A program made the position numbers. This document shows, piece by piece, positions 53,801 to 59,800 of a stretch of 64,000 nucleotides of DNA. Each line of letters opens with the position of its first letter. Position 1 is the stretch's first letter. The DNA lies in NCBI RefSeq assembly GCF_003334305.1, contig NZ_QOWS01000002.1; one strand, 5' to 3'. This DNA is from Escherichia coli. GTDB taxonomy: Bacteria; Pseudomonadota; Gammaproteobacteria; Enterobacterales; Enterobacteriaceae.

Positions 53801-56800
53801 GTCTTCGGCAGGGATCTCGAAATAGGTTGATTGTTCGGTTGCAAGGACAAAAGTACGAAAAAATTGTAGCGCTCTGTCATCATAAGTTAGCTGAAATTTT
53901 GATGTGCCTTTGTCGAATACGGCCTGTAAAACGTCATCTCGCTCGTGCAGGCGCAAATCAAATAATTCCATTCCCGCTTTGCCAAAACGGCGAGCAGGCG
54001 CGTAATCGCACAGCAGCTCAACAATATTATAGTGCCGTGGATCCTGGCATATAGCCCGATATATCATTTTAACCTGTTCTTCCGGACCTTCCAGAAGCTG
54101 GAAAAAATGAGAACCATTAAACAGTAAGATCCCTGTTACGTCAGACTGCATGTTCCTGCGATTTGCTATCGAAACCATTTCTTCGATTTTTTTGACAGGT
54201 TCGTCGTCACGTATATGGCTACGATAAATAAGGGTGGTAAGCATTAACAATCCAGGGTAATGGGTGAGGCGAGAGTAAGACGGTAACAGACATATCTTCT
54301 TGTGTCTTTCTTTTAATACCAAAACATAACCGTTTCTTTACATTGATAAAAAATGGAAAAAGTTGAACACTAGTTGGCGAAAAATCTTGTATAGATTGTC
54401 AGTTAAATGATGCAATATGTTTTATCATAACACATTGTTTTATATGCATTAGCACTAATTGCAAAAAATTAATTTATCATTCTGTACACATATTTCGTAC
54501 AAGTTTGCTATTGTTACCTCACTTAACATTGATTAACATTTTTAACAGAGGCGTAGCATGCATCAAAATTCAGTGACTTTAGATTCTGCGGGAGCAATCA
54601 CTCGTTACTTTGCAAAAGCTAACTTGCCTACTCAGCAGGAAACTCTCGGGGAAATTGTGACTGAGATTTTGAAAGATGGACGTAATCTGAGTCGAAAGTC
54701 GCTTTGTGCCAAACTTCTTTGCCGACTGGAACACGCGACTGGGGAAGAGGAACAGAAACATTATAATGCACTAATTGGGTTGCTTTTTGAATAATGCAAC
54801 AGCCTGATTATTTAACAGGTTAGCTATGAAGTCGTTATGAAGACATCTGATAATGAACGTATAAAATATGAAATTACTGGCCAGGCGGTGATCCAGATAC
54901 TGCGCATGAAGATAAATTTTTCATTGCAGACTCTTATTAAGCAATTACTCGTAATGAAATCGGCTGAGGAAGATGCTTTCCGACGCGATTTAATTGACAG
55001 CATAATTCGTGATTTTAGCAATAGTGATTCAGGAGGGCCAAACCGAAGAACAGCGACAGCTGACAATAAAAGTATGTTCAATGGTAAGAAAATAAACAGA
55101 ATACATTAAAATTTCATAAGTAAGATGAGAGGTTACCATGCTTGAAGATACTACAATTCATAATGCAATAACTGATAAAGCGTTAGCAAGTTACTTTCGC
55201 AGTTCGGGTAATTTGTTAGAAGAAGAGTCAGCAGTGTTAGGGCAGGCTGTCACCAATTTAATGCTTTCAGGCGATAATGTTAATAATAAAAATATTATCT
55301 TAAGTCTGATACACTCCCTGGAAACAACAAGTGATATTCTCAAAGCTGATGTGATTAGAAAAACACTGGAAATCGTGTTGCGATACACAGCTGATGATAT
55401 GTAACTTCTAATTATTAAGTATAAGTTTATAGAAAACTCATTCATCTTATTTTTGTCTGTCGCTTTAGACTATACACAGCATAATTTTATTGGGTTAATA
55501 TTTCTACGAGGCTGACATGAATAATTCAATCCCAGAGAGATTTATTTTTCAATGTGCTTTGTTTAAAAATCTCGAGAGGGAGGTGTTCATGACGCATGGG
55601 TATGTTGATAGTCATATTATTGATCAGGCTTTACGCTTGCGTTTAAAAGATGAAACCAGTGTGATTCTTTCTGATCTCTATCTGCAAATATTGCAGTACA
55701 TTGAAATGCATAAGACTACACTAACGGATATCATTATTAATGACAGGGAATCCGTGCTCTCTTAGAACTTGAGTAAGGTTTTAGAATAAACATCAGCTGT
55801 ATCACCATGCTGATGCAAAGTGAGCATTTCAGGCGTTATGCTTTCTTATTATGTCCGCAATATCAGGTGTCAAGAATGGAGAGTTCTCGCTCTCCATTCT
55901 TGACGCCTGATATCCCGCCTAACTTATTTTGTACTGCCTACATTATGCTCAATAATTAATGGGTTAGATCAAGATGGAGAAAATTTTATCTTCGGCGTGG
56001 ATATTTCTTATGCTCTCTACCATGCTCTCTGTAGATGCCAGCGCGAGCGAATGAATGGCATTTTCATGTATTAAACCCTTTGGCCGGGACAAGCAAATGC
56101 GCAATACACTCATACCCATCCTCGTTGCGATATGCTTGTTTATTACCGGTGTCGCTATTTTGAACATCCAGCTCTGGTATTCCGCAAAAGCAGAGTACCT
56201 GGCGGGAGCGAGATATGCCGCCAACAATATCAATCATATACTTGAAGAAGCGTCACAAGCGACTCAAACAGCGGTTAACATTGCCGGGAAGGAATGCAAC
56301 CTCGAGGAGCAATATCAGCTTGGCACTGAAGCAGCTCTGAAACCTCACCTGCGCACAATCATCATTCTCAAACAGGGAATAGTCTGGTGTACATCCCTGC
56401 CTGGGAATCGGGTCCTGTTGTCTCGTATTCCTGTTTTCCCGGACAGTAATTTACTGTTGGCTCCAGCAATCGACACCGTTAATAGATTACCTATCCTGCT
56501 CTATCAGAACCAATTTGCAGATACGCGCATTTTGGTTACGATAAGTGATCAACATATTCGCGGGGCGCTTAATGTACCCTTGAAAGGGGTAAGGTATGTA
56601 TTACGCGTGGCGGATGACATTATTGGACCAACGGGTGATGTGATGACGCTTAATGGACATTATCCCTATACCGAGAAGGTTCACTCCACAAAATATCATT
56701 TCACTATTATCTTTAACCCGCCGCCACTCTTTAGCTTCTACAGACTTATCGATAAAGGCTTTGGAATTTTAATATTTATTCTGTTAATCGCCTGCGCCGC

Positions 56801-59800
56801 TGCCTTCCTGCTTGATAGATATTTCAATAAAAGCGCAACGCCTGAAGAGATCCTGCGACGGGCAATAAATAATGGGGAGATCGTCCCTTTTTACCAACCT
56901 GTGGTAAATGGTCGGGAAGGGACATTGCGGGGAGTTGAGGTGTTAGCCCGCTGGAAACAACCTCACGGTGGATATATATCACCCGCGGCATTTATTCCAC
57001 TTGCTGAAAAATCCGGATTAATCGTTCCGCTTACGCAAAGCCTGATGAATCAGGTTGCCAGACAGATGAACGCTATCGCGAGTAAATTGCCGGAAGGTTT
57101 TCATATTGGAATTAATTTTAGCGCTTCGCATATTATTTCGCCGACGTTTGTCGACGAGTGTTTAAATTTCCGTGACAGTTTTACCCGCCGCGATTTAAAC
57201 CTTGTTCTGGAAGTCACCGAGCGTGAGCCATTGAATGTTGATGAAAGTCTGGTTCAGCGGTTGAACATTCTGCATGAAAATGGTTTTGTCATCGCGCTGG
57301 ATGATTTCGGTACTGGCTACTCAGGGCTTTCTTATCTTCATGACCTGCATATTGATTATATCAAAATTGATCACAGTTTCGTTGGCCGCGTAAACGCAGA
57401 CCCAGAATCAACCCGAATTCTGGATTGTGTATTGGATCTGGCGCGTAAACTTTCGATCAGTATCGTCGCTGAAGGTGTCGAAACGAAAGAACAACTTGAC
57501 TATCTGAACCAAAATAATATCACATTTCAGCAGGGTTATTATTTCTATAAACCTGTTACATACATCGACCTGGTCAAAATTATCCTTTCTAAACCGAAGG
57601 TGAAGGTTGTGGTTGAGTGAAAATTGATCAGTAAGGCCATAGTGCGGTGTAATTATAGACAGCTAATTAGCTCGTTGCCTCTTGTTACTATTGTTCATTA
57701 TTTTGTTTGCTATAATTGTTTGAAAGTTTTGACAGGATTGCCATTAGTAGCATGAACAATAGTAATAATCTGGATTATTTCACTCTCTATATCATCTTTT
57801 CCATTGCATTTATGCTGATCACCCTCCTGGTCATCCTTATTGCAAAACCCAGTACCGGGCTGGGAGAAGTGCTTGTGACGATAAATTTGCTTAATGCCCT
57901 TGTTTGGCTGGCGATCAATCTGGTTAATCGATTAAGAGAAAGACTCGTCAACCACAGGGATCAGCAATAATCTTTCAGTTTCTCACTGTCAGTATGCGGC
58001 TGAATGGGTTGCTGGCAGTGAACGCCTGGATCATTGAAGGAAAGGCATTATTGCGCAAATAGTTGTCAACCCTGGTGTTATCACGGTTGTTTTTATATAT
58101 CACCGAAATAATCCTCATCGCAACTATTAACAATTTTGATGTCGAAGAGTTATTTGTTAAACAAAATCGTCACCCTAAAGTGATCAATGTCATGAAAATA
58201 AGGTGAAAAATGATAATGCCGACTTATTTATCATTTATATATTGTCGCTGTTTATCTATTTAAATTTTTTGTGCTTTTGTTTTTGTCTTTACCCTCCGTT
58301 TTGGTAATCTGAACGCATAGGTTATTTGACCAGGAATGTTTGTTAATCCAATGAATGGATGGTTAATCTATGAAACTGAAAAAACTCTCCGGGTTTAGTT
58401 TGGGACTTATTGCTCTGGCGGTGGGTAATGCATATGCTGAACAGTTTATTCAGCACGATGAATATAAACATGCTGTGGCAATAAAAGATGGAAAAGTAAA
58501 AGATATTGATAATGCGCTAGTTATAACAACGGGTAATGGAAGTTACGGGTATCCGTTGCAGGAGAGGGTAGCAAGTTAACCATTAACAATGGCGTCATTG
58601 TAACAACGGGCGGTTTATATCCTTCTGACAATAGTCCTCTAAGCACAGCATTAACAGCTAGCGCAATCGTAAGTGAATTTGGCGGTGCTGTTATTTTGCA
58701 GGGTAAAAACACGATTGTCACAACGGGGGATTACTCAATTGGTTTGCTAAGTCAAACGAGTGGAAACCTGAATACTGACACCATAATAAGAGTCAACTCT
58801 GACGGTTCGGTTACCCCCTCTTTTTCTGACGGAGATGATACATTTATTGTTACTGCGGGTAATCACGCAGTCGGCGTTCTTGCGTGTGCATCTCCCGGAA
58901 GCGCGCGTGCGTGTGTATCTTCTCTTGATGAAGAAAGTACTACCGATACAGGAAGTAATGAAAATAATGCCATAGCAAAACTGGATATGGCAAAAGGGGA
59001 GATCACAACCCACGGAACAGAAAGTTATGCCGCGTACGCTAATGGCACTGTCGTCAAGGCTGGTGACACGCTTGATTATACCAATGCCAGCGTTACATTA
59101 ACCGATGTTGATATCACCACGCATGGGGACAATGCTCATGCCATCGCTGCCCGCCAGGGGACAGTTTCATTTAACCAGGGAGAAATTTATACAACGGGTC
59201 CTGACGCCGCGATTGCTAAAATTTATAATGGCGGCACGGTGACGCTGAAAAATACATCTGCAGTCGCGCATCAGGGGGCTGGAATTGTGCTGGAGTCTTC
59301 CATAAATGGTCAGGAAGCAACGGTAGATATTTTATCTGGTAGCTCACTACGGTCAGCAAATGAAATCCTCTACCATAAAAATGAGACGAGTAACGTGACC
59401 ATTACGGATAGTGAGGTATCATCGGCTGCAGATGTTTTTATCAATAATATTAAAGGTCATTTGACCGTCGATGCAACTAATTCAAAAATAACGGGTTCAG
59501 CTAATATTTCAACAGATGATAACACTCATACCTATCTGTCGCTTTCAGATAATAGTACCTGGGATATTAAAGCTGACTCAACGGTGAGCAACCTCACGGT
59601 TGATAATAGTACGGTCTATATTTCCCGGGCAGATGGACGGGATGTCGAACCAACAAGATTAACAATAACTGAAAATTACGTTGGTAATAATGGCGTATTG
59701 CATCTCAGAACTGAATTGGGTGATGATAATTCAGCTACGGATAAAGTCGTTATTAATGGAAATACCTCTGGAACAACCCGAGTTAAAGTTACCAATGCAG

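What the first reader, a model, noticed from the sequence alone, without database searches (positions are those of the whole stretch)
56097..57620. PdeG carries a CSS-type redox-sensing periplasmic domain
PdeG has two transmembrane helices flanking a periplasmic loop with exactly two cysteines (GKECNLEE and IVWCTSLPG), then a cytoplasmic EAL domain (EVLARW). This matches the CSS-domain phosphodiesterase family, whose activity is controlled by periplasmic disulfide formation. Its position directly downstream of the BluF-controlled operon is suggestive of functional linkage.
Basis: partly seen in the sequence, partly recalled or inferred. Interest (0 to 1): 0.25.

Follow-up and report, generated by a model that had tools for sequence, protein, structure and literature searches.

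The report
Known E. coli PdeG, CSS-domain phosphodiesterase

Summary
Window 56097-57620 (+) is pdeG (ycgG) of Escherichia coli. It encodes 507 aa, one residue different from K-12 MG1655 (Y474N).

- There are two hydrophobic helices, at about residues 4-26 and 219-241.
- The roughly 190-residue loop between them contains exactly two cysteines, C67 and C98.
- The EAL domain is complete.
- Pfam matches CSS-motif PF12792 (E 3.6e-31) and EAL PF00563 (E 3.2e-66).
- C67 and C98 are the only invariant columns across 34 diverse N-terminal regions.
- All EAL catalytic residues are present.

The motif here reads C-T-S, a recurrent family variant. The loop is predicted to adopt a double-Cache sensor fold.

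Herbst et al. [quoted passage not shown] Disulfide control was shown only for PdeC and PdeB, so for PdeG it remains an inference.

The suggested link to the BluF/BluR operon is partly backed. pdeG falls in one expression module with ycgZ-ymgABC. However, it was described as RpoS-controlled, it is absent from the conserved blu unit of other enterics, and its closest homologue elsewhere lies next to phoPQ.

Verdict: already known, low interest.

The parts
56097..57620 (+). pdeG (ycgG) coding sequence, 507 aa plus stop
   Evidence: The ORF is seen. RefSeq annotates the identical stretch as pdeG. It differs from MG1655 at 8 nt and 1 aa.
56106..56174 (+). TM1, about residues 4-26
   Evidence: Hydropathy peak. 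The AF2 helix spans residues 2-63 and continues into the loop.
56187..56747 (+). CSS-motif domain (Pfam PF12792), residues 31-217; predicted periplasmic, double-Cache-like fold
56295..56297 (+). Codon TGC for Cys67, the first conserved cysteine
   Evidence: Invariant in 35/35 relatives. Aligns with PdeC Cys75.
56388..56396 (+). Codons for Cys98-Thr99-Ser100, the 'CSS' motif in its C-T-S variant
   Evidence: C98 is invariant. Position 99 is S in 27, T in 7 and A in 1 of 35 sequences. S100 is present in 29 of 35. C98 aligns with PdeC Cys106.
56751..56819 (+). TM2, about residues 219-241
   Evidence: Hydropathy peak. AF2 helix 214-243.
56847..57554 (+). EAL domain (Pfam PF00563), residues 251-486, with a full catalytic set
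   Evidence: Pfam E 3.2e-66. The best solved relative is PA3825-EAL, 4y9o, E 1.2e-66. E281, R285, N340, E372, E375, D402, D403, K423, E459, E462 and Q479 are conserved.
57516..57518 (+). Codon AAT for Asn474 (Tyr in MG1655)
   Evidence: The same Y474N allele is reported for commensal strains Fec10 and Fec101 (PMC10459773).
55860..55913 (+). Inverted repeat with 24-nt arms in the 331-nt gap between ymgC and pdeG; a possible transcript-end or stabilising hairpin
   Evidence: the repeat finder reports 96% complementarity and a 6-nt loop. The fold energy is -44.5 kcal/mol for 55855-55935. The intergenic fold has z-score -5.4. No T-run follows it directly and the terminator scan does not call it.

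Best explanation
The stretch is pdeG (ycgG) of E. coli. It encodes an inner-membrane c-di-GMP phosphodiesterase of the CSS-domain class with the layout TM1 - ~190-residue periplasmic CSS domain - TM2 - cytoplasmic EAL domain.

The mechanism below is transferred from the paralogues PdeC and PdeB and is inferred for PdeG. DsbA/DsbB oxidise Cys67 and Cys98 to an intramolecular disulfide, which keeps the protein in a low-activity state. When the periplasm is less oxidising, for example in oxygen-poor biofilm layers, the free-thiol form dimerises through TM2 and the EAL domain hydrolyses c-di-GMP. The reduced loop is then open to DegP/DegQ cleavage, which leaves an active TM2+EAL fragment.

Shown here: domain make-up, two TM helices, the two invariant cysteines, an intact catalytic site and a double-Cache-like predicted fold. 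Shown by others: YcgG variants lower c-di-GMP-dependent phenotypes. Inferred: the disulfide switch and its direction in PdeG itself.
For: - Annotation and identity.
- Pfam CSS-motif plus EAL.
- Two hydrophobic segments and the Cys map.
- Alignment with PdeB/C/D/N has C67, C98 and S100 invariant. The Cys spacing is 31 residues, as in PdeC (75/106) and PdeB (74/105).
- Across 35 full-length relatives, both Cys and all catalytic residues are conserved.
- C67 and C98 are the only invariant N-terminal columns.
- The EAL domain is closest to the solved PA3825-EAL structure.
- Literature: PdeG is listed among the five CSS PDEs, with redox and DegP/Q control shown for PdeC and PdeB (PMC5897775).
- Full-length and CSS-less YcgG down-regulate the rdar morphotype and CsgD (PMC10459773).
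- YcgG2 and c1610 behave as a PDE (PMC6385356; PMC3484386).
- Shigella pdeG mutant phenotypes (PMC13320778).
Against: - No experiment on the PdeG disulfide was found. Herbst et al. themselves note that in some CSS PDEs the oxidised form might be the active one.
- The motif is C-T-S rather than C-S-S (minor; 7 of 35 relatives share it).
- Loop orientation rests on indirect arguments. The positive-inside count is not decisive.
- ycgG expression in K-12 is reported as almost undetectable.
- About a fifth of complete E. coli genomes have deleted the CSS part yet keep the EAL part, so the sensor is dispensable in many lineages.
Confidence: 0.85

Rival explanations
1. The CSS domain of PdeG is chiefly a ligand-binding double-Cache sensor. 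The C67-C98 disulfide would then be a constitutive structural staple, and activity would be set by a periplasmic small molecule rather than by redox state.
Against: - Sequence identity to those domains is only 4-14%, and no binding-pocket residues were examined.
- The only invariant residues of the family are the two cysteines, which points to the disulfide as the conserved functional element.
- PdeC and PdeB respond to DTT and dsbA mutations.
Confidence: 0.1
2. pdeG belongs to the BluR/BluF-controlled transcription unit. Transcription from the ycgZ promoter would read through the ymgC-pdeG hairpin, so that blue light and cold set the amount of PdeG.
For: - pdeG is on the same strand as the operon, 331 nt after ymgC.
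- No canonical intrinsic terminator and no sigma-70-like promoter is called in the gap.
- ICA of more than 1000 K-12 transcriptomes yields a five-gene iModulon, ycgZ-ymgABC-pdeG (PMC11748552).
Against: - Northern analysis gave a single ycgZ-ymgA-ymgB-ymgC mRNA (PMC3509220).
- A very stable hairpin with 24-nt arms lies between the genes.
- pdeG reporter fusions were classed as RpoS-controlled, while BluF is vegetative (PMC5635695).
- The conserved unit in other enterics is bluR-bluF-ycgZ-ymgAB, without ycgG.
- The closest homologue outside E. coli sits between purB and phoPQ.
- Co-expression could simply reflect shared RpoS or low-temperature control.
Confidence: 0.3
3. PdeG acts mainly as a protein-interaction hub or trigger-type component of the local c-di-GMP network. 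Bulk c-di-GMP hydrolysis gated by the periplasmic domain would play little part.
For: Two-hybrid screens place the cytoplasmic part of PdeG in the five-protein core hub with DgcE, DgcM, DgcO and PdeR. Its role is described as 'currently less clear' (PMC5635695). Expression in K-12 is very low.
Against: - The catalytic site is fully conserved.
- An exogenous PDE complements the c1610/ycgG deletion in CFT073.
- YcgG2 is reported to have PDE activity.
Confidence: 0.1

Closest known systems
PdeC (YjcC) and PdeB (YlaB) of E. coli K-12, the experimentally characterised CSS-domain c-di-GMP phosphodiesterases (Herbst et al. 2018, PMC5897775)
   Same: - The architecture is the same: TM1-CSS-TM2-EAL.
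- The two cysteines sit at aligned positions: PdeG 67/98, PdeC 75/106, PdeB 74/105.
- The EAL residues are intact.
- PdeG is listed with them as one of five K-12 CSS PDEs.
   Different: - Overall identity is only 23-28%.
- The motif is C-T-S instead of C-S-S.
- PdeG is the least conserved of the five among E. coli strains, and its CSS part is often deleted or hit by IS elements.
- Redox and DegP/Q control have not been tested for PdeG.
PA3825 of Pseudomonas aeruginosa (EAL domain structures 4y9o, 4y8e, 5mf5)
   Same: It is the best solved-structure match to the PdeG EAL domain, E 1.2e-66 over residues 246-493. The EVLxRW, DDFGTG, KID and EGVE motifs are identical.
   Different: Only the EAL domain is solved. 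No solved structure matches the CSS domain by sequence.
Double-Cache (dCache, tandem PDC) extracytoplasmic sensor domains, e.g. 3lif_B, KinD 4jgo, Tlp3 4wy9, DctB 2zbb
   Different: - Sequence identity is 8-14%.
- Pfam assigns the PdeG loop to CSS-motif, not to a dCache family.
- The family's conserved feature is a cysteine pair rather than a ligand pocket.
Truncated YcgG alleles (c1610 of CFT073, YcgG2 of NMEC IHE3034, YcgG of Tob1 and B-11870, ST131)
   Same: They occupy the same locus and have the same EAL domain. The window's EAL-coding part is found in 5005 of 5426 complete genomes.
   Different: Those alleles lack TM1 and the CSS domain. In the SF-468 example the deletion corresponds to window 56056-56726. 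The window carries the full-length allele, which is present in 3929 of 5426 genomes.

Membership tests
CSS-domain c-di-GMP phosphodiesterases (Pfam CSS-motif PF12792 + EAL PF00563; Herbst et al. 2018) | Significant match to the CSS-motif profile N-terminal to an EAL domain | tested here: met
   PF12792 matches residues 31-217 with E 3.6e-31. PF00563 matches residues 251-486 with E 3.2e-66.
CSS-domain c-di-GMP phosphodiesterases | Two transmembrane segments flanking a loop of about 200 residues | tested here: met
   There are only two hydropathy peaks, at residues ~4-26 and ~219-241. AF2 predicts helices 2-63 and 214-243.
CSS-domain c-di-GMP phosphodiesterases | Two highly conserved loop cysteines about 30 residues apart, the second within a C-S-S motif | tested here: met
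   C67 and C98 are invariant in 35/35 relatives and are the only invariant N-terminal columns. Their spacing is 31 residues, as in PdeC and PdeB. The middle motif residue is T here, which occurs in 7 of 35 relatives. S100 is conserved.
CSS-domain c-di-GMP phosphodiesterases | The loop faces the periplasm and the EAL domain faces the cytoplasm | tested here: inconclusive
   The evidence is indirect only. With two TM helices the loop lies on the side opposite the EAL domain, which needs cytoplasmic c-di-GMP. The predicted fold equals that of extracytoplasmic dCache sensors. Flanking charge counts are not decisive. No dedicated topology predictor or fusion data were available.
CSS-domain c-di-GMP phosphodiesterases | Catalytically competent EAL domain (EXLXR, N, EXXE, DD, K, E, Q) | tested here: met
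   E281, L283, R285, N340, E372, E375, D402, D403, K423, E459, E462 and Q479 are all present. The domain aligns motif for motif with the solved PA3825-EAL sequence.
CSS-domain c-di-GMP phosphodiesterases | DsbA/DsbB-dependent disulfide formation that lowers PDE activity, and DegP/DegQ processing of the reduced form | not testable with these tools
   This was shown for PdeC and PdeB only. [quoted passage not shown]
pdeG/ycgG orthologue group of E. coli | Near-identity and conserved position ymgC - pdeG - ymgF | tested here: met
   The protein is 506/507 aa identical to MG1655 b1168. The same neighbours are found in MG1655 and in strain 07-4299. A match is present in 5061 of 5426 complete genomes.
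NCBIfam equivalogs of other c-di-GMP phosphodiesterases (PRK10551, DosP and others) | Whole-protein score above the curated cut-off | tested here: not met
   The best score is NF007839 at 275.8 bits against a cut-off of 461. All other models match through the EAL domain only. PdeG is a paralogue of those proteins, not an equivalog.
BluR/BluF-controlled ycgZ-ymgABC transcription unit | Co-transcription or co-regulation with ycgZ-ymgABC | tested here: inconclusive
   In favour:
- pdeG is on the same strand with a 331-nt gap, and no canonical terminator or promoter is called in the gap.
- pdeG shares an iModulon with the operon (PMC11748552).
Against:
- A strong hairpin lies in the gap.
- The Northern blot shows a four-gene mRNA.
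- pdeG is classed as RpoS-controlled.
- Linkage is not conserved for the closest homologue.

The most novel reading that the evidence does not exclude
pdeG is transcriptionally coupled to the BluR/BluF-controlled ycgZ-ymgABC operon by partial read-through of the ymgC-pdeG hairpin. Blue light and cold would then set how much of a redox-gated (and possibly ligand-binding, dCache-like) phosphodiesterase is made, merging light, temperature and periplasmic redox signals into one c-di-GMP output.
Probability: 0.2. Interest if true: 0.35.

Novelty: already known. Interest (0 to 1): 0.07.

Why it matters
It matters little as a discovery. PdeG is a named, annotated member of a family whose mechanism was published in 2018.

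What remains is modest:
- PdeG itself has never been tested for the disulfide switch.
- Its sensor part is lost in roughly a fifth of sequenced E. coli, including extraintestinal pathogens, while the enzyme part is kept.
- Large-scale expression data tie it to the blue-light operon upstream.

These points could guide a small follow-up on how E. coli tunes biofilm signalling. They refine existing knowledge and do not open a new question.

Tried and rejected
- An Rfam scan of 54300-58400 at E up to 1 found nothing, so the hairpin is not a known RNA family.
- The terminator and promoter consensus scan found no site in the ymgC-pdeG gap. It therefore neither proves nor excludes read-through.
- A BLAST of the hairpin region against E. 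coli genomes gave a median of 2 places per genome. I attribute this to the palindrome matching itself on both strands rather than to a dispersed repeat; I did not check this further.
- I considered the alternative in-frame start at 56055 (+14 aa, MAFSCIKPFGRDKQ). RefSeq uses 56097, and the choice does not alter the topology argument.
- No NCBIfam equivalog reaches its cut-off.
- I fetched the upstream region of strain 07-4299 to annotate the rest of the window. That strain carries a prophage there and shares nothing with the window upstream, so I dropped it.
- Tschowri et al. 2009 (Genes Dev) could not be retrieved. Statements about it come through the 2012 paper.
- One script failed on a file name and one literature query was rejected for a short term.
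- The single representative search gave enough diversity.
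Full report
**What is at the coordinates**

The ORF list and raw sequence show one long + strand reading frame that ends at 57620. This is exactly the CDS that RefSeq annotates as pdeG in strain 07-4299 and in K-12 MG1655 (b1168). The gene neighbourhood is bluR, bluF, ycgZ, ymgA, ariR, ymgC, pdeG, ymgF.

A megablast of 55400-58000 finds the region in 5061 of 5426 complete E. coli genomes, many of them 100% identical. Against MG1655 the gene differs at 8 nucleotides and one residue, Y474N. That allele has already been reported for commensal isolates Fec10 and Fec101 (PMC10459773). The window therefore comes from an E. coli close to K-12 but not identical to it.

**Checking the observation**

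Kyte-Doolittle 19-residue averages of 1.6 or more occur in only two places, which gives TM1 at about residues 4-26 and TM2 at about residues 219-241.

The protein has six cysteines: C13 in TM1, C67 and C98 in the loop, C233 in TM2, and C355 and C444 in the EAL domain. The loop therefore holds exactly two. That count alone is about what composition predicts. The meaningful evidence is conservation:

- Pfam matches CSS-motif PF12792 over residues 31-217 (E 3.6e-31) and EAL PF00563 over residues 251-486 (E 3.2e-66).
- In an alignment with the four K-12 paralogues PdeB, PdeC, PdeD and PdeN (23-28% identity), C67, C98 and S100 are invariant in the N-terminal half.
- PdeG C67/C98 align with PdeC C75/C106, the residues shown experimentally to form the disulfide. 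The 31-residue spacing is the same in PdeC and PdeB.
- A search of 1.84 billion representative proteins with residues 1-246 returned 93 hits. In 35 full-length sequences both cysteines are present in all.
- In a 34-sequence alignment of N-terminal regions (12-46% identity to PdeG), C67 and C98 are the only invariant columns.

The motif in PdeG reads C-T-S, not C-S-S. Threonine at that position occurs in 7 of 35 relatives, so it is a normal family variant.

**The enzyme domain**

The residues that define active EAL phosphodiesterases are all present and are invariant among the paralogues and relatives. They are E281 and R285 in EVLAR, N340, E372 and E375 in EVTE, D402 and D403 in DDFGTGYS, K423 in KID, E459 and E462 in EGVE, and Q479.

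The best solved relative is the EAL domain of P. aeruginosa PA3825 (4y9o, E 1.2e-66), followed by E. coli PdeL/YahA. No NCBIfam equivalog reaches its cut-off, which fits PdeG being a distinct paralogue.

**Fold of the sensor part**

An AlphaFold2 model of residues 1-250, built from the 34-sequence alignment, is confident (mean pLDDT 90.7, pTM 0.86). It shows:

- a long helix (2-63) that continues from TM1;
- a short helix (69-81);
- two beta-rich modules;
- a helix (214-243) that forms TM2.

This supports an extracytoplasmic sensor role and gives a structural frame for the family. I could not measure the Cys-Cys distance because coordinates are not exposed.

**What is known**

Herbst et al. 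[quoted passage not shown] For PdeC they show:

- DsbA/DsbB-promoted disulfide formation lowers activity;
- the free-thiol form dimerises via TM2 and is active;
- DegP/DegQ cut the reduced loop to an active TM2+EAL fragment.

PdeB behaves similarly. [quoted passage not shown] They also allow that the logic may differ among paralogues.

Later work calls the YcgG N-terminus a 'redox responsive CSS domain' and studies natural CSS-less alleles (PMC10459773). PDE-type behaviour of the truncated alleles is reported in CFT073 and NMEC. pdeG phenotypes are reported in Shigella. The redox mechanism for PdeG itself is an inference by homology.

**The linkage idea**

pdeG lies 331 nt downstream of ymgC on the same strand. 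The gap contains a 24-nt-arm inverted repeat (55860-55883 / 55890-55913, 96% complementary). It folds at about -44.5 kcal/mol, and the whole gap folds far better than shuffles (z -5.4). No T-run follows it directly. The consensus scan calls neither a terminator nor a sigma-70 promoter in the gap, and Rfam has no match.

Published data point both ways.

Against a tight link:
- Northern analysis gave a ycgZ-ymgA-ymgB-ymgC mRNA (PMC3509220).
- The conserved unit in other enterics is bluR-bluF-ycgZ-ymgAB, with ymgC, ycgG and ymgF present only in some E. coli (PMC3509220).
- PdeG is classed as RpoS-controlled and stationary-phase induced, whereas BluF is vegetative (PMC5635695).
- The closest full-length homologue outside E. 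coli (P0005, 46% identical in the N-terminal part, same CTSLPGN motif) sits between purB and phoPQ, not near a blu locus.

For a link:
- An independent-component analysis of more than 1000 K-12 transcriptomes yields a five-gene 'biofilm' iModulon, ycgZ-ymgABC-pdeG (PMC11748552).

I rate co-expression as real. Its cause is open: read-through, or shared RpoS or low-temperature control. A functional link at the protein level is untested.

**Population picture**

The EAL-coding part (56850-57620) is present at 80% coverage or more in 5005 of 5426 complete genomes. The TM1-CSS-coding part (56097-56810) is present in only 3929. In the remainder only the last ~80 nt of that segment match.

In strain SF-468 the deletion corresponds to window 56056-56726. 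RefSeq marks the remnant as an N-terminally incomplete pseudogene there, and the blu locus and ymgC are retained. Several genomes carry IS3/IS1203 or IS1 insertions inside pdeG. This agrees with published reports of CSS-less YcgG in UPEC, NMEC and ST131.

**Verdict**

Novelty: already known. Interest: low.

Noticed in passing
window 55860-55913: A near-perfect inverted repeat with 24-nt arms and a 6-nt loop lies between ymgC and pdeG. It is very stable as RNA (about -44.5 kcal/mol) but no T-run follows it directly. Neither the terminator scan nor Rfam calls it. It is partly degraded in strain SF-468.
   Followed up: partly
window 56056-56726 (versus L007 5997-6001): A recurrent natural deletion removes the start codon, TM1 and the CSS domain of pdeG but keeps TM2 and the EAL domain. 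By coverage counts, about 1000 of 5426 complete E. coli genomes have the EAL part without the CSS part.
   Followed up: partly
pdeG in other genomes (hits H1-H5, H33): Several strains carry IS3/IS1203-family or IS1A insertions inside pdeG. RefSeq then splits the gene into a 'CSS-motif domain-containing protein' and a 'cyclic diguanylate phosphodiesterase'.
   Followed up: no
window 57516-57518: The Y474N substitution relative to MG1655 lies near the C-terminal end of the EAL domain, five residues before the conserved Q479. The same allele is described in commensal strains Fec10 and Fec101.
   Followed up: partly
window about 50186 and upstream (28000-52000): The window aligns to K-12 from icdC onward and carries icd, purB, phoQ, lolE and pepT upstream without the e14 prophage that K-12 has at icd. 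It is 100% identical to strains such as H15 over 28000-52000.
   Followed up: partly
window 58370-61017 (ycgH region): The ycgH autotransporter region is split into a 69-aa and a 773-aa ORF, as in the K-12 pseudogene. About 1.2 kb of its passenger part (roughly 58437-59650) has essentially no nucleotide match to K-12 (only a 34-nt stretch at 85% identity), and the next ~550 nt is only 73% identical. This is a different allele.
   Followed up: partly
L009/L010 8001-9533: The closest full-length PdeG-like protein outside E. coli (510 aa, CSS-motif + EAL, same CTSLPGN motif) is encoded between purB and phoP-phoQ in a 5.6-Mb genome. That position lies in the same wider icd-purB-phoPQ neighbourhood found upstream in this window.
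   Followed up: no
window 56055-56096: An in-frame ATG 42 nt upstream of the annotated pdeG start would add 14 residues (MAFSCIKPFGRDKQ). The natural CSS deletion begins right at this point.
   Followed up: no
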